From assembly GCF_004010195.1 (NCBI RefSeq), contig NC_057718.1, positions 4,881,604-4,905,349 of the forward strand: a stretch of DNA of 23,746 bases. Direction: 5' to 3'. This document shows positions 4,171-23,746 of this stretch, in pieces. The notes under the pieces were generated by a model. It had not been told where the DNA came from. It searched no databases and saw only the letters and a program-made list of their open reading frames with translations. Source of the DNA: Chiloscyllium plagiosum. Lineage: Eukaryota. Made by a program: the position numbers and the translations under genes. Every line of letters starts with the position of its first letter. Position 1 is the first letter of the stretch.

Positions 4171-4337
4171 CAGGGGAAAAGATGACGATGGAGTAGCGCT
4201 CCTGAGACAGATCTCATCCACTCTAACTGCTTTTCTTTTCTTCTTTCTTTCTCTCTCCTTGTTTTTTACTTTCTACCTTATATTTTTCTTACTTACCACT
4301 TGAGCTCGGACAGCATCGGCAACAGACCTCGGGTGAG

Positions 4338-4610
4338 CCCAGCGTGGAGGAGAGTAGGCCCAGTGCGGAGGAGAGTAGGCCCAGCGTGGAGGAGATTAGG
4401 CCCAGCATGGAGGAGAGCAGGCCCAGTGTGGAGGAGAGCAGGCCCAGTGTGGAGGAGAGTAGGCCCAGTGTGGAGGAGAGAAGGCTCCACGTGGAGCAGA
4501 GAAGGCCCCAGGTGGAGGAGAGAAGGCCCAGCATGGAGGAGAGTAGGCCCAGTGCGGAGGAGAGTAGACCCAGTGTGGAGGAGAGCAGGCCCAGTGTGGA
4601 GGAGAGAAGG
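4338..4610. repeat. 21-bp minisatellite, 13 units (CCCAGTGTGGAGGAGAGTAGG)
   Basis: 273 bp / 21; gives the heptad ORFs SVEESRP and GLLSSTL. Confidence 0.95.
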
Positions 4611-4774
4611 CCCAAAAGATGACGATGGAGTAGCGCTCCTGAGACAGATCTCATCCACTCTAACTGCTTTTCTTTTCTTCTTTCTTTCTCTCTCCTTGTT
4701 TTTTACTTTCTACCTTATATTTTTCTTACTTACCACTTGAGCTCGGACAGCATCGGCAACAGACCTCGGGTGTG

Positions 4775-5215
4775 CCCAGCGTGGAGGAGAGTAGGCCCAG
4801 TGCGGAGGAGAGTAGGCCCAGTGTGGAGGAGATTAGGCCCAGCATGGAGTAGAGCAGGCCCAGTGTGGAGGAGAGTAGGCCCAGTGTGGAGGAGAGTAGG
4901 CCCAGTGTGGAGGAGAGAAGACTCCACGTGGAGCAGAGAAGGCCCCAGGTGGAGGAGAGAAGGCCCAGCATGGAGGAGAGTAGGCCCAGTGTGGAGGAGA
5001 AAAGGCCCAGTGCGGAGGAGAGTAGGCCCAGTGTGGAGGAGAGCAGGCCCAGCTTGGAGGAGAGCAGGCTCAGCATGGAGGAGAGTAGGCCCAGCATGGA
5101 GGAGAGTAGGCCCAGCGTGGAGGAGAGTAGGCCCAGTGTGGAGGAGAGAAGGCCCCACGTGGAGCAGAGAAGGCCCCAGGTGGAGGAGAGAAGGCCCAGC
5201 ATGGAGGAGAGTACA
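4775..5215. repeat. 21-bp minisatellite, 21 units plus ~2 degenerate units to ~5256
   Basis: 441 bp / 21; same unit as 4338-4610. Confidence 0.95.
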
Positions 5216-5623
5216 CCCAGCGCAGGGAGATAAGGCCCATCCCATGGGAGAGCAAGCCCTCTTGGGGAAAGCACAGCTTGGAGCATCTGCAACGCCCATT
5301 GCTTCAGAACTTTTAACTGTATTTTTCTTCCTTTTTACTAAGAAGACTGTCATGCTGAACTTTTAAGCTTATTTCTTTATTTCTGTAACTAAGATTTTGT
5401 ACCTGGGCACTTTGTACCTAAGATGATACTGTGTATGCGGTGACATTGTAAATTTTTCACTGTGCTCTTGTATACTGCACTTGAGTACTCGTGGCAATAA
5501 AAGCCTAAATCGCAATGTAACTGTCTGAAAGGCGGCAGAAGCAGACTAAATAATAATGTTCAAGGGAAACTTGGTTAGGTTCTGGAAAAATAATTACAAA
5601 AGCCACAGAGATCAATTGGACAA

Positions 5624-6346
5624 AGGGAGTGTTGCTGAACAAAGAGACCTTGGAGTGTAGGTTCATAGCTCTTTGAAAGTGGGAGTCACAGGTAGACATG
5701 ATGGTAAAGAAGGCATTTGGTATGCTTTCCTTTATTGGACAGAGCATCGAGTATAGGAATTGGAGTTCATGTTGCGGCTGTACAGGACATTGGTTAGGCC
5801 ACGTTTGGAATATTGTGTTCAATTCTGGTCTCCTTCCTGTCGGAAAGATGTTGTGAAACTTGAAAGGGTTCAGAAGAGATTTACAAGGATGTTGCCAAGT
5901 TTGGAGGATTTGAGCTACAGGGAGAGGCTGAATAGGCTGGGGCTGTTTTCCCTGGAGCTTTGGAGGCTGAGGAGTAACCTTATAGAGATTTATAAAATCA
6001 TGAGGGGCACAGATAGGATAAATAGACAAGGACTTTTTCCCTGAGGTGGAGGAGTCCAAAATGAGAGGACAGAGGTTTAGGGTAAGAGAGGAAAGATATA
6101 AAAGGGACCTAAGAGGTAGCTTTTTCACACAGAGGGAGGTGTATGGAACGAGCTGCCAGAGGAACTGTTGGAGGCTAGTACAGTTACAACAGTTAAAAGA
6201 CGTTCAGATAAGTACATGAATAGGAAAGATTTAGAGGGATATGGGCCAGAAGCAGGTAAGTGGGACTTGTTTAGTTTGGGGTTATGTTCGGCATGGGCTG
6301 GTTGGACTGAAGGGTCTGTTTCCATGCTGTATGACTCTATGACTCC
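5624..6346 (+). mobile_element. CR1-clade LINE 3' fragment
   Basis: LYRTLVRPRLEYCVQFWSP...LERVQKRFTRMLP...YRERLNRLGLFSLE; ends with a (tatgactc)n tail. Confidence 0.95.
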
Positions 6347-6929: not shown

Positions 6930-7261
6930 AGATTACAGATTACAGATTTTTTTACAGATTACATTACAGTGTGGAAACAGGCCCTTCGGCCCAACAAGTC
7001 CACACCGACCCACCGAAGCGCAACCCACCCGTACCCCTACATTTACCCCTTACCTAACACTACGAGCAATTTAGCATGGCCAATTCACCTGACCTGCACA
7101 TCTTTGGACTGTGGGAGGAAACCGGAGCACCTGGAGGAAACCCATGCAGACACGGGGAGAACGTGAAAACTCCACACAGTCAGTCGCCTGAGGCTGGAAT
7201 TGAACCCGGGTCTCTGGCGTTGTGAGGCAGCAGTGCTAACCACTGTGCCACCGTGCCGCCC
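6930..7261 (-). mobile_element. HE1-type SINE, full length, young
   Basis: Minus strand gggcggcacggtggcacagtggttagcactgctgcctcac...gggttcaattcc; CR1-like 3' tail with (tgtaatc)n; near-identical to 11879-12195. Confidence 0.95.
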
Positions 7262-7541
7262 AGTGACAAAGAGGGTGACAGATATGAGAGCAGGGAAGGA
7301 ACAAAGAGTTGAGATGCTGTTTTATACTGAGGATAATCTCTGGCATGGACGGATTGAGCAGAGTCCCTTCATTACCAGGTTGTAAATACTTTGCCTGATC
7401 ATTACAATGGGTTGTGTGACAAGAGTTGATTTGCCGAGGGATTTTCCTGCAGAGTTTTGCTCCACAGTACCAGTAGAGGTTTGGATGATGTATAATCACA
7501 GAATTCCCAGGCATCCTCACCAGTTATGGCTTTATGATGCT

Positions 7542-11244: not shown

Positions 11245-11830
11245 TCCCTTTACATTGGGGACACAAACCACAGACTGGGCTGACCACTTCACAGAACACC
11301 CACACTCTGACTGTAAAAAGACCCTGAGCTTCCAGTTCCCTGTCACTTGTAACACCCCACCCTGTTCCCTGGCCAATATCTCTGTCTCAGGATTGCTGCA
11401 GTGCTCCAGTGAAGCTCAATGCAAGCTGGAAGAGCAGCACCTCATTTTCCACTTGGGGACCCTGCATCTTTCTGGACACAATATTAAGTTCAACAACTTC
11501 AGGGCTTAAGCACCTTTCCCCATGCTTTTCCCCTCCCCCATACACCAGGCACTGTCATTACACAGGCAGCTACCACTCATTCTCTATTGTCAGCCACTAA
11601 CTGTCCCTGTCAGCAGCTGCTCATTCCCCCAGACTGATCTTTACCCACTCCTCTGTCTGTCCAACTGTTATTCTCCCTCTTCGGGCTCTATCCCTACCTA
11701 GAGCTTACTCTCCCCTCACCTTCCCCCCATCTTTGGGTATAAAAAGCAATTTTTTCCCAGCTACCATCAGTTCTGAGGAAGGGTCACTGGTAGCAAAATA
11801 TTAACCCTGATTTCTCCACACAAGATGCTG
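11245..11830 (+). mobile_element. Old Penelope-like element 3' part (GIY-YIG endonuclease remnant and terminal repeat); its terminus resumes at 13030-13060
   Basis: tac att ggg gac aca (YIG-T), DHFTEH, CKLEEQHLIFHLGTLHLSGHNIKFNNFRA*; decayed hammerhead at 11769-11806. Confidence 0.85.
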
Positions 11831-11878
11831 TTGATTCTCATAGAATCTCTATAGTGTGGAAACAGGCCCTTTGGCTTT

Positions 11879-12195
11879 GGGCGGCACAGTGGCACAGTGG
11901 TTAGCACTGCTGCTTCACAGCGCCAGAGACCCGGGTTCATTTCCCACCTCAGGAAACTGACTGTGTGGAGTTTTCACGTTCTCCCCGTGTCTGCGTGGGT
12001 TTCCTCCGGGTGCTCCGGTTTCCTCCCACAGTCCAAAGATGTGCAGGTCAGGTGAATTGGCCACGCTAAATTGCCTGTAGTGTTAGGTAAGGGGTAAATG
12101 TAGGGGTATGGGTGGGTTGCGCTTCGGCGGGGCGGTGTGGACTTGTTGGGCTGAAGGGCCTGTTTCCACACTCTAAGTAATCTAATCTAATCTAA
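11879..12195 (+). mobile_element. HE1-type SINE, full length, young
   Basis: gggcggcacagtggcacagtggttagcac...gggttcatttcc...gaagggcctgtttccacact-(taatc)n. Confidence 0.95.
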
Positions 12196-12454
12196 AAGAT
12201 TATAAAAAAAAGCCAACAATGACCCTCCGAAGAGTAACCCACCCAGACCCGTTCCCCTATCCTGTATTTGCCCCTGACTAATGCCCCCATCCTACACATC
12301 CTTGAACACCTTGGACAATTTAGCATGGCCAATTCACCTGACCTGCACATCTTTGGACTGTGGGAGGAAACCAGAGCACCCGGAGGAAACCCACGCAGAC
12401 ACGGGGAAAACGTGCAAACCCCACACAGTCAGTCGCCTGAGGCTGGAATTGAAC

Positions 12455-13499: not shown

Positions 13500-13890
13500 A
13501 TAGAGTCACAGAGTCATAGAGATATACAGGAGGGAAACAGACCCTTCGGTCCAACTTTTCCATGCTGACGAGATATCCTAAACTAATCTAGTCCCATTTG
13601 CCAGCACTTGGTCCATATCCCTCCACACCCTTCCTATTCATATACCATCCGGATGTCTTTTAAATGCTGTAATTGTACCAGCCTCCACCATTTCCTTTAG
13701 CAGCTCATTCCATAAATGCACCACCCTCTGTGTGAAAAAGTTGCCCCGTAGGTCTCTTTTATATCTTTTTCTTCTCACCCTAAATCTATGCCCTCTGGTT
13801 CTGGACTCCCTCACCCCAGGGAAACGACCGACGCTCCAGGGAAAACAGCTCCAGCCTATTCGGCCTCTCCCTATAGCTAAAACCCTCCGA
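13500..13890 (-). mobile_element. CR1-clade LINE 3' fragment with an internal deletion near 13830
   Basis: tagagtcacagagtcatagagatatacag...ccagggaaaacagc; reverse complement of the 5930-6346 family. Confidence 0.9.
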
Positions 13891-14899: not shown

Positions 14900-15600
14900 A
14901 AGAGTTGAACATTTTGATGCAGGAAAAGCACAGCAGGTCAGGCAGCATCCAAGGAGCAGGGGAGTCAATGTGTTGGGCATAAGCCCTTCATCAAGAATGG
15001 GGGGTTCTGGAAGGGGGTTAAGAGATAAATAGGAGGGTAAAGGTGGGACTGTGGGTTAGAGGTAGCTAGGAAGGCGATAGGTAGATGAAGGTGGGTGTAA
15101 TGTTGATAGGTGGGAGAGGAGGGTGGAGTGGATAGGTGGGAAGGAAGATGGACAGGTAGGACAGTTCAAAGGAAGCGGTGCTGAGTTGGAAGGTTGGATC
15201 TGGGATGAGGTGGGGGGAGGAGAAACTGGTGAAGTGGATGTTGATGTTGTGTGGTTGGAGGGTCCCAAGGTGGAAGATGAGGTGTTCTTCCTCCAGGCGT
15301 CCGGTGGCTCAAGTTTGAGGAGGCCCAGGAGCTGCATGTTCTTGGTGGAGTTAAACTGTTCGGCCACCGGGCGGTGGGGTTGTTTAGTGCACGTATCCCT
15401 GAGATGTTCTCTGAAACGTTCCTCAAGTTGGTGTCCTGTCTCCCCAGTGTAGAGGAGACTGCACTGAGAGCAACAGACACAGTAGATGAGGTGTTTGGAG
15501 GTACAGGAAAACCTCTGCTGGATGTGGAAGGACCCTTTGGGGTCTTGGATGGAGGTGTGGGAAGAGATGCGGGCGCAATCCTCACTTTCTTCTCGGATCT
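14900..15600 (-). mobile_element. Penelope-like element 3' part, GIY-YIG endonuclease pseudogene
   Basis: FSCTSKHLIYCVCCSQCSLLYTGETGHQLEERFREHL (IY...YxG motif with CxxC); decayed hammerhead at 14963-14998. Confidence 0.9.
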
Positions 15601-15657
15601 GAACATGAAGTAAATATTTTATCCAGAGCAAACACAGAGAATATTAAAGAAGCTCAG

Positions 15658-16430
15658 TGAATTTGAATGAGCTTTATTGTCAGGTATACGCAAATGAGTG
15701 CAGTGAAAGGTTTACAAGTTGCCACATGACGGCATCATCTTAGGGACAAAGGTGCAGATTCTTAGGAACAAGTTCTTAGGGAAAACAAGTTAGAAAAATA
15801 AAGAAATAAAAAGTTCAGAATGACAACCTTTCTGACCCAGTCCACACCCGCACCGAGGCTCCAGTAACTGGAAGGGAGACCCCTACTGACTTGCTACCAC
15901 CTGCACCAGATACACCAACATAGGGGTTGGCACACTTTAAGTGCCATCCCTTCATCACTGGGCCCACACTCGCCCCGCAACCAGGAGAACCCACTCCAGG
16001 CACAACACACTGCTGTCACTGGCACACCAAGCCCCAAGAGTCCACAGTCTGTGCCCACTGCCACCAGGAGTCCCTGGCTCTGCTGCCAGGCCAGCCTACC
16101 GCCTGGCCATGAGTCCCGCTTCAGAAGTGGATGTCGCCTTGCTCACCCCGCCATCTTGAAATACCCCGTACCGCCAGCCCCACTTCCCCCCATCCCCGAT
16201 CGCTGGAGGGCGGCTTTGCTGCCTACAGCTCTGATCGACAGGAGAACATCCTCGCTGTTAACCCCTGCCACTGAGGGGAGAGCCCACATCCAACACTCCG
16301 CAAGTGGCCTGACCAACCTGCCACAGGGAAGGAAAGAAAAAAGGAGAAAAGAAAAAAGAATAGAAAGAGAAGTAGATGAGCCCCAGGCAAGAGCCCAAAG
16401 GCAGCCTTGGTACTACACTGTCATCTTGAA
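15658..16430 (-). mobile_element. Unnamed non-autonomous retroposon, third copy, with a non-repetitive GC-rich middle
   Basis: Minus-strand head ttcaagatgacagtgtagta...ggggctcatctact plus CT tract; tail tcattctgaactttttatttctttattt...ctaagatgatgc...tttcactgcactc...gacaataaagc matches 5345-5505. Confidence 0.8.
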
Positions 16431-16510
16431 CACAGCAGGTCTGGCTGAATCTGTGGAAAGAGGCACAGAGTTAACATTTCTAGTCTGGTATGACTCCTCT
16501 TCGGACTGTG
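16431..16510 (-). mobile_element. Old Penelope terminal repeat (outer end at 15628-15657), split by the 15658-16430 insertion
   Basis: cagcaggtctggctgaatctgtggaaagaggcacagagttaacatttc; decayed hammerhead at 16469-16508. Confidence 0.7.
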
Positions 16511-16682
16511 TTAGGAATTAGGTTACTTTTTATAGTTTGTCAGAGGTTAGAGGGGGAGAAAAATGGCAGGTAGTATAGAGCGTAAAAGGCAGAGGTTCTG
16601 TTAATAGTGGAAAAAGAGAAAAAGAGGTATACGTTAAGGTTTTTGTTAGGGTTACATCCCTTTATTGTCCAGTTTTAGCACA

Positions 16683-16772
16683 CCATGTTCCCCGGCCTAC
16701 ATCTCTGTCTCAGCCTGGCTGCTAGGCCCCCGTGAAGCTGGGAGAACAGCACCTCATTTTCACCTTGGGGAA
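16683..16772 (+). mobile_element. Penelope GIY-YIG C-terminal remnant
   Basis: atctctgtctcag...aagctgggagaacagcacctcattttcaccttgggga aligns with 11357-11460. Confidence 0.7.
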
Positions 16773-16776
16773 ACAT

Positions 16777-16850
16777 GCCCTCTGCTGGTGGATTGGAGGA
16801 AGGGCAGCCTACCCAACACTCCCCCCTGGTGGTGAATTGGAGTAAATGCT
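16777..16850 (-). promoter_or_regulatory. Paired CTCF-like sites (cores 16777-16788 and 16821-16832)
   Basis: Minus strand CCAGCAGAGGGCAT and CCACCAGGGGGGAG match the CTCF core CCASYAGRKGGCR (second has one core mismatch). Confidence 0.7.
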
Positions 16851-16914
16851 GGCTACAGCATCCACATCAGCCAGTGAATTCTCCAGTGGCAGGAGGCACA
16901 GTTTGGGACTGATT

Positions 16915-17080
16915 CCCATGATGAAGGATTATCTTATGGTGGAAAAGTTTGATCAGGTTGGACTCGCACCATTAGAGTTTAGGCAAATGAGAGGTAATCG
17001 TATTGAAACATATAGGATCCTTGAAGTAAATGTTGAGAAGATATTTCCCCTTGTGTGAGAGTCTGGATCTCAGGGACACA
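16915..17080 (+). mobile_element. Degenerate CR1 ORF2 fragment
   Basis: GLAPLEFRQMRGNRIETYRIL...VEKIFPLV. Confidence 0.8.
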
Positions 17081-17172
17081 CTGAACAACACTGCGTTCAC
17101 TTCAGAGGGTGTACTCATCACCCATCAGTCACAGTGCCTGTGTCATCAACACTATAATTCCATTTAGGTTCT

Positions 17173-18765
17173 TTTTTTATATATTTCAAAAATATACTTT
17201 ATTCATAAAATAATTTGATGGTCTGTACAGTTGGTCATGACATACATATGTAAACATGTACATACAGAGATCAGAATTTATCATTTTTATACAGGTCTGT
17301 ACATTTTTCAATCATATGACCATATAATTAGCTGAGGCGTCAGCAGAGCCCAAATGACTACATGGGCCCCCTGTTCTTCGTTAGGCAGGCAGACTTTACA
17401 CAGTGGTCTTTCCCCACCGCGCCTTGGCAGCAGCTGCCCCAAGCTTCAGCGCGTCCCTCAACACGTAGTCCTGGACCTGTGAATGTGCCAGTCTGCAACA
17501 CTCAATCGGGGTCAACTCCTTCAGCTGGAAGATCAGCAGGTTTCGGATGGCCCAGAGAGCGTCCTCACCGAGTTGATGATCCTCCAGGCACAGTTGATGT
17601 TCGTCTCGGTGTGCGTCCCGGGAACAGGCCGTAGAGCATGGAGTCCCGCGTCACGGCGCTGCTCGGGACGAACCTCGACAAACGCCACTGCATTCCTCTC
17701 CAGACTTCTTCTGCGTAGGCACATTCCAGANNNNNNNNNNNNNNNNNNNNNNNNNNNNNNNNNNNNNNNNNNNNNNNNNNNNNNNNNNNNNNNNNNNNNN
17801 NNNNNNNNNNNNNNNNNNNNNNNNNNNNNNNNNNNNNNNNNNNNNNNNNNNNNNNNNNNNNNNNNNNNNNNNNNNNNNNNNNNNNNNNNNNNNNNNNNNN
17901 NNNNNNNNNNNNNNNNNNNNNNNNNNNNNNNNNNNNNNNNNNNNNNNNNNNNNNNNNNNNNNNNNNNNNNNNNNNNNNNNNNNNNNNNNNNNNNNNNNNN
18001 NNNNNNNNNNNNNNNNNNNNNNNNNNNNNNNNNNNNNNNNNNNNNNNNNNNNNNNNNNNNNNNNNNNNNNNNNNNNNNNNNNNNNNNNNNNNNNNNNNNN
18101 NNNNNNNNNNNNNNNNNNNNNNNNNNNNNNNNNNNNNNNNNNNNNNNNNNNNNNNNNNNNNNNNNNNNNNNNNNNNNNNNNNNNNNNNNNNNNNNNNNNN
18201 NNNNNNNCTTGGTGCACGCCCCAGCCCCCCCGAACCAAATACGCAGCACCTTCAGGTGGTCAGTCCTGACGATGGAGGGGGTCGGGGATTGGTCGGCCCA
18301 GTTCCCGAAGTGCACGGCTTTGCTCTTGCCTCGGTTTACCTTGGCCCCTGAGGCCCGTTCGAACTGGTCACATGTGCACATGAGTCTGCGCACGGACAGC
18401 GGATCCGTGCAGAAAACGGCGGCGTCATCCATGTACAGGGAGGCCTTAACCTGCAGGCCCCCACTGCCAGGAATAGTCACCCCTCTCAGGCTCGTATCCT
18501 TCCTGATGGACTCGGCAAATAGCTCTATGCAGCACACAAACAAGGCAGGAGAGAGGGGGCAGCCCTGCCTGACTCCAGATCTGACTGGGAAGCTATCTGA
18601 TTCCCACCCGTTGATTGAGACTGCACTGACAATGTTGGTGTAGAGCAGTCTGATCCAATTGCAGATTCCCTCCCCAAAGCCCATTTTGGAGAGAACATCT
18701 CTCATATACGTGTATGATATCCAGTCAAAGGCTTTCTCCTGGTCCAGGCTTATCAGGCAGGTGTC
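17173..18765 (-). mobile_element. Tx1-clade (L1 group) LINE, 5'-truncated inside the RT, 9-bp TSD
   Basis: LDQEKAFD, GVRQGCPLSPALF, LYMDD; C-terminus QDYVLRDALKLG...WGKTTV* (stop 17396-17398) after a frameshift near 17565; AATAAA and A tail; TTAGGTTCT at 17164-17172 and 18766-18774. Confidence 0.9.
17731..18207. other. Assembly gap
   Basis: Run of N. Confidence 1.
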
Positions 18766-18924
18766 TTAGGTTCTGGGATTGTTCTATTCACACAGCCCCA
18801 ACTCTAAATGGATCCATCCCCAAGCACTCACTGCCTCCTTTCTGCTCACAGCCCCACTATGTCATTATGACTGTATTTGCCATGTGCACTGACACTGGAG
18901 GCCAATGTAGAACAGCCAGTGCAG

Positions 18925-20148
18925 TGAGGAATTAACAAAACTCTTACAGCAAGGAGAGCCAATGGATGTTAACGACCTGGACTTCAAGAAGCTGTACAGG
19001 AGGCTGCTGAGTAGGATAAGGGCCCGTGGTGTCAGAGGCAAGGTGCTGGCATGGATAGAAGCTTGGCCCTCTGGCAGAAAGCAGACAGTGGGGGTAAAAG
19101 GGTCCTGCCCAGGATGGCAGCCGGTGCCAAGTGGTGTTCTACAAGGCTCAGTGTTGTGACTACAATTTCCCACTTTATACATTAACGATCTAGATGAAGG
19201 AACAGAGGGCCTTCTGGCTACATTTGCAGGCAACACAAAGATAGGTAGAGGGACAGGTAATAATGAGGAGGTGGGGAGGCTGCAGAAGGTTTTGGACAGG
19301 TTAGGAGAATGGACAAAGAAGTGGCAGATGGAGTACAACATGGGAAAGTATGAGCTCATGCACTTTGGTAGGAAGAATAGAGGCATGGACTATTTTCTAC
19401 ATGGGGAGGAAATTCAGAAGTCTGAAGTGCAAAGAGATTTGGTAGCTCTAATCCAGGATTCTCTCCAAGTAAATTTGCAGGTTGAGGCAGTAGTTAGGAA
19501 GGCAAACGCAATGATGGCATTTATTTTGAGAGGACTTGAATATAAAAGCAGGGATGTACTTCTGAGATAACATTTCTATTAGGCTCTGGTCAGACCACAT
19601 TTGGAGTATTGTGCACAGTTTTGGGCCCCATATCTCAGGAAGGATGTATTGGCCCTGGGGCGGGTTCAGAGGAGGTTCATGATAATGGTTCCCCCGAATA
19701 AAACGCTTAAGGAACATTTGACAACTCTGGTTCTATACTCAATGGAGTTTAGAAGGATGAGGGGGAGATCTAATTGAAACATACAGAATACTGAATGGCC
19801 TGGACAGAGTGGTCATTGGGAAATTGTTTTCATTGGTCGGACAGACTAGGACCTGAGGGCACAGCCTTAGAGTAAAGGGAAGACCTTCTGGAACAGAGAT
19901 AAGGAGAAACTTCTTCAGCCAGAGAGTGAGGAATCTGTGGAATTCATTGTAACAGAAAGCTGTGGGGGCCAGGTCATTGAGTGTATTTAAGACAGAGATA
20001 GACAGGTTCTTGATTGTAAAGGGGATCAAGGGCTACAAGGAAGCAGGAGAATGGGGTTGGGAAACTTATCAGCCATGATCGAATGGTGGAGCAGACTCGA
20101 TGGGCTGAATGGTCTAATTTGTGCTCCTGTGTCTCATGGTCTGATGGT
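18925..20148 (+). mobile_element. CR1-clade LINE ORF2 pseudogene (RT to 3'UTR)
   Basis: DLDFKK, SGVLQGSVL*, decayed FADDTK (FAGNTK), W..KWQMEYN, LVRPHLEYCAQFW; stops and indels; 3' tail gatgggctgaatggtctaat...atggtctgatggt. Confidence 0.95.
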
Positions 20149-20299
20149 GATATGGAATGGAAGAGCAGTGTGAGATTTCTTACTTGTGAAGCTCAGTGAC
20201 AGCAGCTTTGTGCCAATGGCCATCAGTGACACCTACACCATAGACGTCCTGTTGCTGTGGGATGCCAGCCGTCTCCCAGTTAAGGCTGGAGAGAGGGCG

Positions 20300-20485
20300 C
20301 TTTCCCCTGTCTGAGAGAGCTGCTGGTCTGTGGAATTCTCTTGCAGGTGGTGTTAGCTCGGTTCATCCTTGAAAAAGGAGGCATGGGAAGAGGGGAAAGT
20401 CAAGTTTAAGTCATAACCAAATCAGCCTCAATTCTATCAACTGATAGAGCAGGCTGAAGGGGCTGAATGGCGTCCTCTCCTCTGA
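20300..20485 (+). mobile_element. Degenerate CR1 3' remnant
   Basis: tctgtggaattctctt...atcagcc...agagcaggctgaaggggctgaatggc. Confidence 0.55.
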
Positions 20486-20560
20486 ATTCTGGTTTGTGAT
20501 CGTGAAGGAAGAGCAGCCTCTAGCTCTGCCCTCTGCTGGTGAACTGGAAGAAGGGCAGAC
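20485..20560 (-). promoter_or_regulatory. CTCF-like site (core 20528-20539) with a decayed partner unit about 44 bp to the left
   Basis: Minus strand CCAGCAGAGGGCAG; the linker aggaagagcagcct matches aggaagggcagcct at 16797. Confidence 0.7.
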
Positions 20561-20571
20561 AGCATTGTTCT

Positions 20572-20663
20572 AATTAACTTGTTCTGAGATGCTATTACAC
20601 AACCTCTGGAACAGGTGGGATTTGCTCCTGAGGTAAGGACTCTGCCACTGAACCACAAGAGGG
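20572..20663 (-). mobile_element. Short tRNA-derived SINE, degenerate
   Basis: Minus strand ctcttgtggttcagtggcagagtccttacctc...aaatcccacctgttccagaggttgtgtaatagcatctcagaac. Confidence 0.55.
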
Positions 20664-20699
20664 CCGTCCAAGGGTGTTGTTAAGATTTCCTTTGTAATG

Positions 20700-21470
20700 G
20701 ATTCCAACAGTTCTTCAGTGACTTGGGTTGATCAAACCTGCCTATAGTCTTCAGTTTTCCTGTTGTTTGAGAATAGTGTTAATATGTTTGCTAATTTCCA
20801 ATCAGCTGCAGTCTCCTGAAACCTAAGAAATGTTGGAAGAACACACTCACCAACCCATTCCCTAAGCAGCTATCTCTTTCAGAACCCAAGAGCCAGTGGC
20901 CATCAGCTCCTGGGGATTTATTAGCTTTGTCCGTTAGATTTCTTTGGGGTTTTTTTTCTCTCTGCTGATACTAATTGTCATAAATTACACCCTTAGTTAC
21001 CCTTCGATTAGTTTATGGGATTTGTATGTTCTACTGTGAAAACAGACAAGACACCAATTCACTATTTCCCCAAAGCTGTTGTTGTCATTGCTCTGTGGAG
21101 GCAAATTGTTTATTTTAGCTACTCCCTTACTTTTGATAAATGTATAAGAGGGCTCCTCAAAGCTGCTTTAATATTCTTGGCTAGCTTTCGCTCATCCCAT
21201 TTTTCATTGCATCAGCCTTTTGCTGGTCTCTAAAACACTCCCAATCTCTAGGTTTACTAATGTTCCTTGCAATACTGTGACCCTTTTCCTCAAAATGAAC
21301 ACTATCCTTCATTTGCCTCTTAAATCAAGGTGCATCTTTCTACAATCTTTTCAATATGTTTTTGTTAAAATTTGGGGAATTGTTTCTTTAACTGTTTGTT
21401 TGCCATCATATATTTTTGCTTATTTGGCCAATTTAGCCAATTCTTCCCTTGTGCAAGTTTCCATCTCTCT
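20700..21470 (-). mobile_element. Highly degenerate CR1 ORF2 (linker and pre-RT region)
   Basis: ccatcagctcctggggattt reads KSPGADG on the minus strand (SPGPDG motif); gctaatttccaatc reads DWKLA. Confidence 0.6.
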
Positions 21471-21991
21471 CCCTGATTGCTCAGTGATCTACTGAATCCA
21501 GTTCAACAGGATGCTCAAACATTTCAGTACAGTTTCCCAATGTACGCCAACTCTGAAACATTGAAGGCCAATTGATTATGGCAGGATGAATGGAGATGCC
21601 TCACAATGGGCTGCCTATCCTGTGGGAATCTACTGTACAACTCTTGGATTCAACATGCTGGCTGCGGTCTTAAAAGCCTCTTAATGCCATCCCCCTTCCA
21701 TGTTGCTGCCCTGTCTCACTGAGCGCTGCTGTCTCCATGGAACTGTAAAGTGTGGTCTCTACATGGTGGGACCAGCTGAAGAGCTCACAATCAAAACAGA
21801 TACTCATCAACAGATATGGATGAGTGCCAAGCTAACCATGTGCAGGTGCATGGGGAACTGACCAGCAGTCTCCTTTCCAAATCACTGACAGAAAGTAACT
21901 CAGTGAAGGAAAGGACAAGTCCAGTGCCTTCTTCCCAAAAGGGGGTCTCCATGTGGTTCTCTCTGGCCTCACAAGCTTAACAGCAGATAGC

Positions 21992-22745
21992 TTTTTTTTT
22001 GCCTGTGATGTGGGCATCTCTGACGGCCAGCATTTATTTCCCATCTCTAGTTGCCCTTGAGAAGGTGGGGGTGAGCTGCCTTCTTGTACCACTGCAGTCC
22101 ATGTGCTGTAGGAGAACCCTTAAGGAACCCAAAGAATAAACGCTGATATATTTCCAAGTCAGGATGGTGAGTGACTCAAAGGGGATCTTGCAGGGGGGTG
22201 GTGTTCCCATGTATCTGCTGCAATATCCATTGAGATGGGTTTGGAAGGTGCTGTCTGGAGATCTTTGGTAAATTACTGCAGTGCATCTTGTAGATAGTAC
22301 ACACTAGTGTTACTGAGCACCGGTGATGATTGGAGTGGATGGCTGTGGATGTGGTGCCAATCAAGGAGCTGCTTTGTCCTGGGTGGTGCCAAGCTTCTTG
22401 AGTGTTGTTGGAGCTGCCCCCATTCCAGGCAAATGGGGAGTATTCCATCACACTCCTGACTTGTGCCTTGTCGATGGTGGATAAGATTTGGGGAGTCAGG
22501 AGGTGAGTTAGTCACCGCAGTATTCCCAAGTGTATACCTGCTCTTGTAGCCACTGTGTTCAGATGGTGAGTCCATTTGAGTTTCTGGTCAACAGGAATCC
22601 GTAGAATGCTGATAGTTGGGGTTTAGTGATGGTAATGCCATTGAATGTCAAGGGGCAGTGGTTAGATAGTCTCTGATTGAAGATGGTTATTGCCTGGTAT
22701 ATGAGTGACACAAGTATTACTTGATAATCTATCAAGGTGTCATGT
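21992..22745 (-). mobile_element. CR1-group LINE of a different family, 3' fragment
   Basis: Frameshifted MEYSPFAW...LIG...IHSNHHRCSV..VCTIYKMHC; 3'UTR ctcaagggcaactagagatgggaaataaatgctggcc plus A run. Confidence 0.75.
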
Positions 22746-22884
22746 CCCTCATCCAAAGAGAATTGCTTTCAATCCCCCACTTCCTCTGAATCTAGTGCTT
22801 AAGTTCTACAGAAGGCTAAATCTAATTTCAGCAGAATATAAGCAGACTTTTGTTGAAAGGCCTTTGACAGAATGGACTTGCATT

Positions 22885-22955
22885 GCCCTCTGGTGGTGAA
22901 TTAAGGAAGAACAGGCTGCAACTCTGCCCTCTGGTGTTAAATTGGAGAACTGAAG
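22885..22955 (-). promoter_or_regulatory. Paired CTCF-like sites (cores 22885-22896 and 22926-22937)
   Basis: Minus strand CCACCAGAGGGCAA and ACACCAGAGGGCAG, 41 bp apart. Confidence 0.7.
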
Positions 22956-22994
22956 AGAGCTTATCAATGATTAGAAACAGGGCAGTGATTTGAA

Positions 22995-23027
22995 GAAAAA
23001 CAGAAATTGGTGGAGAAACCCAGCAGG
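22995..23027 (-). mobile_element. Old Penelope terminal-repeat stub
   Basis: aaaaacagaaattggtggagaaacccagcagg resembles 14437-14462 and 15628-15657. Confidence 0.55.
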
Positions 23028-23746
23028 CCGAGTTTTCACCATCCCCCCAGACCTCCCCCTCACTGAGGACGAACGATCAGTCCTTAGCAAAGGACTCATC
23101 TTCATCCCCCTCCGTCCACGCATCAATGAATTTAATACACGCCGTGACATCGAACAATTCTTCCGTCGCCTCCGCCTCCGAGCTTACTTTCACAATCAGG
23201 ACTCCCGCCCACCTTCCGAGGACCCCTTCGCCCACCTCCAACACACTGCATCCACCTGGACACACCCCTCTGAGCTTACTTTCACAATCAGGACTCCCGC
23301 CCACCTTCCGAGGACCCCTTCGCCCACCTCCAACACACTACATCCACCTGGACACCCCGCGCTGGCCTATTACCTGCCCTCGACCTCTTCATTTCCAACT
23401 GCCGCCGGGACATTAACCGCCTCAACCTGTCGACCCCCCTCCCCCACTCCAACCTCTCACCCTCACAACGCGCAGCCCTCCAATCCCTCTACTCCAATCC
23501 CAACCTCACCATCAAGCCAGCGGATAAAGGGGGGCGCAGTGGTAGTCTGGCGCACTGACCTCTACACCGCTGAAGCCAAACGCCAACTCGAGGACACCTC
23601 TTCCTACCGCCCCCTTGACCATGACCCCACCCCCCATCACCAAACCATCATCTCCCAGACCATACAGAACCTCATCACCCCAGGAGATCTCCCACCCACA
23701 GCTTCCAACCTCATAGTCCAGGAACCCCGCACTGCCGGTTCTACCT
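23028..23746 (+). mobile_element. Penelope-like element ORF, region N-terminal to the RT core; runs off the window
   Basis: LTEDERSVLSKGLIFIP...FFRRLRLRAYF...SNLSPSQRAALQSL...IKPADKGG-AVVVW (PLE DKG motif); 92-bp tandem duplication and a +1 G. Confidence 0.92.

What the first reader, a model, noticed from the sequence alone, without database searches (positions are those of the whole stretch)
16777..22955. Paired CTCF-like module repeated three times, co-oriented, in unrelated flanks
Seen: five CTCF-core matches (16777, 16821, 20528, 22885, 22926) and one decayed unit (~20488), all on the minus strand, form three pairs with a 41-44 bp period. Similarity extends past the core to a plus-strand unit of about GCCCTCTGSTGG-TGAATTGGAGGAAGRRCAG-SCT, while the neighbouring DNA is different (Penelope remnant, CR1 tail, unique sequence). 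Knowledge: the CTCF core is CCASYAGRKGGCR, and co-oriented CTCF arrays occur at loop-extrusion anchors and in clustered protocadherin and antigen-receptor loci. Inference: this is either a small dispersed repeat spreading paired CTCF sites, or the retained islands of an old tandemly duplicated unit whose spacers were overwritten by TEs. Either would make it a candidate shark insulator or anchor array. It is the main signal here that no family I know explains.
Basis: partly seen in the sequence, partly recalled or inferred. Interest (0 to 1): 0.75.

Follow-up and report, generated by a model that had tools for sequence, protein, structure and literature searches.

The report
Transposon-split CTCF site array, shark
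A short old DNA repeat in a shark genome carries five same-direction, full-length binding motifs for the genome-folding protein CTCF and was later cut into three pieces by jumping genes, which makes it a likely but untested chromosome boundary of a kind already known from mammals.

Summary
The five minus-strand CTCF cores are real (5 found, 0.86 expected). All five cores match it at 7-8 of 10 bases, at the known 8/9-nt distance; none of the other 79 core-like sites in the window does. The three 'pairs' look like remains of one local tandem array (~42-bp monomer, ~85-bp a-b dimer). One old LINE, itself split by two younger LINEs, separates modules 1 and 2; it cut a sixth unit, leaving a decayed core half at 16862 and the upstream motif at 20507. 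A 6-bp direct repeat in register suggests modules 2 and 3 were also joined. Best reading: a minisatellite-born, co-oriented cluster of bipartite CTCF sites acting as a one-way loop-extrusion barrier. Binding, boundary activity, genome-wide copy number and conservation could not be tested (no genome or reads available). Origin as a piece of a dispersed transposon remains open. It works like DXPas34/DXZ4-type CTCF repeats and clustered boundary sites: a new member of a known kind.

The parts
16776..16807 (-). Unit 1a: CTCF core 16776-16788 (0 mismatches), 9-nt spacer, upstream motif 16798-16807 (8/10)
16820..16851 (-). Unit 1b: core 16820-16832 (1 mismatch), 9-nt spacer, upstream motif 16842-16851 (7/10)
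16852..16880 (-). Decayed unit 1c: linker, dead core 16862-16874 (8 of 13 bases differ from the unit majority) and 6/6 spacer bases; probably the left half of the unit cut by the old LINE
   Evidence: rank 13 of 45,898; non-core columns alone: top 9e-5 of positions
16891..17106 (+). 5' piece of an old 5'-truncated CR1-type LINE (ORF2 aa 870-946 of P0001, 39% identity); class name CR1 is recalled
   Evidence: (E 4e-12)
17164..18774 (-). Younger LINE (Tx1-like by recall) inside the old CR1, flanked by the 9-bp direct repeat TTAGGTTCT at 17164 and 18766; contains the assembly gap 17731-18207
   Evidence: (RVT_1, E 1.4e-20)
18926..20140 (+). Younger CR1-type LINE (65-72% aa identity to P0001) inside the old CR1
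20274..20493 (+). 3' piece and tail of the old CR1 (aa 943-965, continuing the 5' piece); the tail occupies the place of the unit-2a core
   Evidence: (E 1e-3)
20497..20526 (-). Unit 2a remnant: orphan upstream motif 20507-20516 (8/10) and a-to-b linker
20527..20558 (-). Unit 2b: core 20527-20539 (0 mismatches), 9-nt spacer, upstream motif 20549-20558 (7/10)
20562..20567 (+). GCATTG after unit 2b, repeated at 22880-22885 across the start of unit 3a: candidate junction or target-site duplication
20603..21330 (-). Old antisense CR1 ORF2 fragment (aa 359-607) between modules 2 and 3
   Evidence: E 1e-8 and 2e-5
22884..22914 (-). Unit 3a: core 22884-22896 (0 mismatches), 8-nt spacer, upstream motif 22905-22914 (7/10)
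22925..22955 (-). Unit 3b: core 22925-22937 (1 mismatch), 8-nt spacer, upstream motif 22946-22955 (8/10)
16650..16775 (+). Left flank: Penelope-like remnant (103/132 identical to the copy at 11328-11475; class by recall and by the GIY-YIG hit of a related copy at 15059-15643)

Best explanation
The locus is an old local minisatellite whose ~42-bp unit is a complete two-part CTCF site (13-bp core, 8-9-nt spacer, 10-bp upstream motif, ~10-bp linker). The monomer duplicated into an ~85-bp a-b dimer and the dimer into at least three head-to-tail copies; LINE insertions then spread the array over 6.2 kb and destroyed one unit. SHOWN from sequence: five intact bipartite motifs, co-orientation, homology of the units, and one LINE splitting modules 1 and 2. 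INFERRED: CTCF binds each unit with zinc fingers 3-7 on the core and 9-11 on the upstream motif. Two molecules may sit head-to-tail on a pair, about four helical turns apart. The CpG-free sites would be insensitive to methylation. Because all motifs read towards lower coordinates, the cluster would stall cohesin arriving from the left and form the right-hand edge of a domain, with redundancy from five sites. My odds for the steps: local tandem origin 0.8, binding of at least one site 0.85, boundary or anchor activity about 0.55.
For: All 5 cores carry the upstream motif at 7-8/10 and 8/9-nt spacing; 0 of the other 79 sites with up to 3 core mismatches reach 7; background rate 0.011; joint sites 5 observed against 0-1 in 30 Markov simulations; no other spacing from 3 to 16 nt exceeds 5/10. 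The 8-nt distance equals that in the printed IL3 insulator probe; the motif is on 13-15% of sites and is enriched at insulators (PMC12885311). The two-part motif is shared by lamprey, chicken and human (PMC5504073). Skate TAD boundaries show oriented CTCF motifs (PMC10115646). The spacer, which ZF8 does not read base by base, is 74% identical between units, which points to duplication. The old CR1 pieces continue each other (aa 870-946 then 943-965). A decayed unit sits exactly 42 bp after 1b. Upstream motif plus linker identity is a-a 0.72, b-b 0.59, a-b 0.53. No CpG in the five units.
Against: No binding, chromatin or cross-species data were obtained. The five units are homologous, so they are not five independent tests; as a single event the upstream match has p of about 0.01. 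The two central bases (AG) of the upstream motif match in only 2 and 1 of 6 units. Cores differ less from the majority than non-core columns (5/65 against 14/80), but this is not significant (Fisher p = 0.09) and the cores were chosen for matching. The second old-CR1 piece is a short hit (23 aa, E 1e-3 in the sub-region, 0.4 in the whole window), and about 370 bp between the pieces is unassigned. The 1c core is more decayed than its flanks, which is unexplained. The module 2-3 junction rests on 6 bp. Mouse TAD boundaries are LINE-depleted (PMC6945661) and this region is LINE-rich. No gene is evident in the window to be insulated.
Confidence: 0.5

Rival explanations
1. The array is the internal or subterminal tandem repeat of an old dispersed transposon that carried CTCF sites. 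This copy is one of many and was broken up by later LINEs.
For: Transposons spread CTCF sites in lamprey (hAT-Tip100, 489 of 586 copies under peaks; PMC5504073) and mammals. About 550 bp (21450-21990) and 190 bp (22700-22880) between modules are unassigned and could be the carrier. An earlier scan note reports a P-type element with four tandem CTCF-like sites (e1-7496280; unchecked).
Against: No further copy elsewhere in the 23-kb window. No shared flanks beyond the units. No significant ORF2 match over the modules (one chance-level HSP at E 0.08), no Pfam match in the six frames scanned across them and no Rfam family at gathering level.
Confidence: 0.22
2. A neutrally decaying minisatellite that happened to capture a CTCF site. 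CTCF may bind, but the cluster has no boundary role.
For: Units are about 25% diverged; one core is dead; the core-versus-flank contrast is not significant; the array tolerated several LINE insertions; a deep-learning study predicts that only a minority of annotated CTCF sites affect folding (PMC11828424).
Against: The array predates a LINE only 39% identical in protein to its relative, yet five of six cores still have at most 1 mismatch. The two breaks in consensus are at core positions 1 and 12. Both spacer deletions kept a permitted spacing.
Confidence: 0.22
3. The pairs are clustered double sites (2xCTS) used by CTCF with CTCFL as a germline promoter or enhancer platform rather than a boundary.
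For: [quoted passage not shown] Sharks have a testis-biased CTCFL (PMC7471279).
Against: 2xCTS are enriched at promoters and enhancers, while the units here have no CpG and no gene is evident. The spacing is tighter than the 30-40-bp linker class plotted in that paper.
Confidence: 0.06

Closest known systems
Two-part CTCF site (core plus upstream U/M2 motif), as in the IL3 insulator (PMC12885311, passages read)
   Same: Core consensus, 10-bp upstream motif at 8/9-nt distance, several near-identical sites; tandem copies raise insulation.
   Different: IL3 sites are about 1.3 kb apart with near-perfect upstream motifs. Here sites are 41-44 bp apart, the upstream motifs mostly lack the central AG, and nothing is assayed.
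DXPas34 minisatellite at mouse Tsix (PMC3149622, passages read)
   Same: Short tandem monomer (30-70 bp in rodents), one CTCF site per monomer, diverged monomers.
   Different: DXPas34 is CpG-rich, promoter-linked and continuous. This array is CpG-free, has a-b dimer structure, carries upstream motifs and is broken by LINEs.
DXZ4/Dxz4 macrosatellite (PMC3491370, passages read)
   Same: Tandem repeat in which conservation concentrates on the CTCF motif.
   Different: Kilobase monomers, X-linked and allele-specific; no sequence or positional relationship tested or expected.
Clustered co-oriented CTCF sites at TAD boundaries (PMC6945661, PMC11828424, PMC10115646; passages read)
   Same: Several same-direction sites within a few kb; site number adds strength.
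   Different: In the mouse study, clusters grow by gain of new, often TE-derived sites. Here the sites are paralogues from local duplication. Boundary position is not shown.
2xCTS clustered double sites (PMC4562119, passages read)
   Same: Two motifs under one ChIP peak, which could be co-occupied.
   Different: Promoter and enhancer context is absent and the spacing is tighter.

Membership tests
Two-part CTCF site | Core consensus match | tested here: met
   three exact, two with 1 mismatch (consensus string, no PWM)
Two-part CTCF site | Upstream motif at the known distance | tested here: met
   7-8/10 in 5 of 5 at 8 or 9 nt; background 0.011; central AG mostly absent
Two-part CTCF site | CTCF occupancy | not testable with these tools
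   no run was listed; the shark ChIP-seq paper is not held
CTCF-site tandem repeat (DXPas34/DXZ4 kind) | Head-to-tail homologous units, one site each, co-oriented | tested here: met
   periods 44, 42, 42, 41
CTCF-site tandem repeat (DXPas34/DXZ4 kind) | One continuous array in origin | tested here: inconclusive
   modules 1-2 supported by colinear LINE pieces and unit 1c; modules 2-3 by a 6-bp repeat only; Tandem Repeats Finder does not report it
CTCF-site tandem repeat (DXPas34/DXZ4 kind) | Conservation concentrated on the motif | tested here: inconclusive
   within-array p = 0.09 with ascertainment bias; no orthologues available
DXPas34 itself | CpG-rich monomers | tested here: not met
   0 CpG in five units
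TAD-boundary CTCF cluster | Lies at an insulation minimum or loop anchor | not testable with these tools
   no Hi-C access
2xCTS | Promoter or enhancer context | tested here: inconclusive
   CpG o/e 0.12-0.29 in the bins holding the modules, no gene evident; no chromatin data
Dispersed TE-borne CTCF repeat | Many dispersed copies with shared flanks or termini | not testable with these tools
   no genome held; none in the window
Internal fragment of CR1 ORF2 | Alignment over the whole unit | tested here: not met
   only the core resembles one ORF2 site: identity core 0.64, spacer 0.39, upstream motif 0.26, downstream 0.27
Antigen-receptor or protocadherin CTCF arrays | Adjacent V segments/RSS or cadherin exons | tested here: not met
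   no such ORF recognisable; 2 RSS-like matches, both over 9 kb away and in repeats

The most novel reading that the evidence does not exclude
The functional unit is a head-to-tail dimer of full-length CTCF sites set four helical turns apart. It may have been seeded from the near-CTCF core that CR1 ORF2 copies carry. It was amplified in sharks as a repeat family and is kept pair by pair while LINEs overwrite everything between. Sharks would then build domain boundaries from repeat-born cooperative CTCF dimers, and LINE insertions would date their origin.
Probability: 0.12. Interest if true: 0.65.

Novelty: new member of a known kind. Interest (0 to 1): 0.35.

Why it matters
If bound and functional, it is a natural, datable example of a boundary built by local tandem duplication of complete two-part CTCF sites and kept through repeated LINE insertion, in a lineage where 3D-genome rules are known mainly from skate. 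It would allow a direct test of whether two CTCF molecules with upstream-motif contacts can co-occupy sites 42 bp apart, and whether such pairs act cooperatively. It does not define a new class of element.

Tried and rejected
No whole genome was held, so copy number, neighbouring genes and synteny are untested. A search for sequencing runs with 'ChIP' in the library description listed none; this is no evidence either way, and no reads were laid. Exact-pattern scans gave 0 in viral contigs and 0 then 3 in metagenome contigs; the 3 loci (two near-identical) share only the pattern; L001 and L002 lie inside long unrelated ORFs and L003 duplicates L002. These collections are not expected to hold shark DNA. 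Rfam over 15500-23746 gave 2 matches far below gathering score: structured RNA rejected. Coding repeat (14 codons per 42 bp) rejected: periods 44 and 41 break frame, and 20 of 21 frames scanned had no Pfam hit, the one hit being the LINE RT. Derivation from the local SINE or other window repeats rejected: best alignments are within the shuffled range. No further units one period before 1a or 3a, or after 2b or 3b (ranks 558-17,832). Look-ups of earlier scan notes by sequence, place and relatives were empty. Five literature searches listed no description of this array or of a shark CTCF repeat. The shark genome paper with CTCF ChIP-seq was not available and could contain one; no supplements were read.
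Full report
Context. The window is gene-free, repeat-rich vertebrate DNA. Earlier notes on the same assembly call it a carpet shark (e1-8018141; not checked here). The named close hit of the local LINE protein is from Stegostoma tigrinum.

Observation. Five CTCF-core matches with at most 1 mismatch occur, all on the minus strand, at 16776, 16820, 20527, 22884 and 22925; 0.86 are expected and 0 of 100 shuffles reach five. The units resemble each other outside the core: held-out units rank 5-106 of 45,948 positions on non-core columns, and modules align to each other (scores 55.5-69.5) but not to the rest of the window (27.5-31.5, shuffled range 24.5-34.5).

What the extension is. Read on the CTCF strand, each core is preceded by an 8- or 9-nt spacer and a 10-mer matching CTGCAGTTCC at 8, 7, 7, 7 and 8 positions. 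That consensus and its role (zinc fingers 9-11, ZF8 bridging a linker, 13-15% of sites, enriched at insulators) come from passages of PMC12885311, whose IL3 probe has the same 8-nt distance; that 9 nt is the second common class is recalled. Of 84 sites in the window with up to 3 core mismatches, only these five reach 7/10; the background rate is 0.011; 30 Markov simulations gave 0 or 1 joint site against 5 observed; other spacings from 3 to 16 nt never exceed 5/10. A sixth, orphan upstream motif (8/10) lies at 20507-20516. The two-part motif is shared by lamprey, chicken and human (PMC5504073, passages and Discussion), so sharks should use it (inference). Caveats: the units are homologous, so this is not five independent tests, and the central AG matches in only 2 and 1 of 6 units.

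How the array arose. The spacer is 74% identical between units, the core 86% and the upstream motif 63%. Since the spacer is not read base-specifically, this indicates duplication. Upstream motif plus linker are more alike among first units (0.72) than among second units (0.59) or between types (0.53), indicating an ~85-bp a-b dimer; the highest core-to-upstream identity, however, is between 1a and 2b (0.91), so some homogenisation across types may have occurred. With a full-length LINE ORF2 (P0001: endonuclease plus RT) as query, 16891-17106 matches aa 870-946 and 20274-20342 matches aa 943-965, followed by a tail to about 20493. These read as one old element split by a younger LINE with a 9-bp target duplication (17164/18766) and a younger CR1 (18926-20140). 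The second hit is short and about 370 bp in between is unassigned. Exactly 42 bp after unit 1b lies a decayed unit whose non-core columns score in the top 9e-5 of positions, while 8 of 13 core bases differ from the majority. It most simply is the left half of the unit whose upstream motif survives at 20507. Modules 1 and 2 were therefore one a-b-a-b array. After unit 2b the array ends in GCATTG (20562), and the same word straddles the start of unit 3a (22880); it occurs 5 times in the window. Between them lie an antisense CR1 fragment (20603-21330), an L2-like element (about 22000-22700; class recalled, protein hit only E 0.48) and about 740 bp unassigned. Joining module 3 to the array is likely but weaker.

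A possible seed. The best non-unit hits to the unit profile fall repeatedly on one site of CR1 ORF2, which carries a 2-mismatch CTCF core in the 13789 copy. Identity to the units is 0.64 in the core but 0.39, 0.26 and 0.27 in spacer, upstream motif and downstream flank. The unit is not a CR1 fragment; seeding from this proto-core is a post-hoc possibility only.

How it most likely works. Shown: five intact, co-oriented, CpG-free two-part motifs in two complete pairs and one single site within 6.2 kb. Inferred: CTCF binds with high affinity through both motifs; a 32-bp site on a 41-44-bp period leaves 10-12 bp, about four helical turns start to start, so double occupancy is plausible but untested. 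By the convergent-orientation rule (established knowledge; oriented motifs at skate TAD boundaries in PMC10115646, passages), leftward-reading sites would stop cohesin coming from the left. Insulation rises with site number (PMC12885311, PMC11828424; passages). Evidence for selection is only suggestive: 5/65 core differences against 14/80 outside (p = 0.09), with the cores ascertained. The array is older than a LINE that is 39% identical in protein to P0001, against 65-72% for the younger copy, yet five of six cores remain near-perfect.

Comparison with known systems. It works like CTCF-site tandem repeats (DXPas34, PMC3149622; DXZ4, PMC3491370; passages) and clustered boundary sites (PMC6945661, passages). 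It is not DXPas34-like in CpG content, is not an antigen-receptor or protocadherin array, and meets 2xCTS only in closeness of sites (PMC4562119, passages), though sharks have CTCFL (PMC7471279, passages). An earlier scan note describes an eleven-copy CTCF minisatellite in a chimaera-like fish (e1-7791257; unchecked), which suggests the kind recurs in cartilaginous fishes. Searches listed no account of this locus; the shark ChIP-seq paper was not held. One passage of PMC7932699 was read and not used.

Verdict. Real feature, explained by known CTCF biology plus local duplication and LINE insertion. New member of a known kind; function predicted, not shown. Interest 0.35.

Noticed in passing
window 13789-13801 and homologous CR1 sites at 6059, 7823, 9128, 19849: One position in CR1 ORF2 is a near-CTCF core (2 mismatches in the 13789 copy). 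Given CR1 abundance in sharks it could be a large reservoir of proto-sites.
   Followed up: partly
window 20653-20665 (+): A core-only CTCF-like site with 2 mismatches on the opposite strand, 115 bp right of unit 2b, without upstream motif; such matches are at chance frequency (9 observed, 11 simulated).
   Followed up: partly
window 16862-16874: The core of the disrupted unit differs at 8 of 13 bases while its spacer (6/6) and linker are well kept; unexplained.
   Followed up: partly
window 4177-5222: 21-bp minisatellite within a 437-bp direct duplication of 97-99% identity: recent duplication or assembly artefact.
   Followed up: no
window 23175-23364: 92-bp tandem duplication inside a Penelope-like element that runs off the window end.
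   Followed up: no
window 6964-7271, 11869-12176, 12305-12454, 1362-1510: Several copies of a SINE (HE1-like by recall), two as a 93% inverted pair 4.6 kb apart.
   Followed up: no
window 15860-16430 and 678-1020, 4177-4330, 5230-5510: Copies or remnants of an unidentified repeat with a GC-rich body and A/T-rich ends, one of which holds the 21-bp minisatellite.
   Followed up: no
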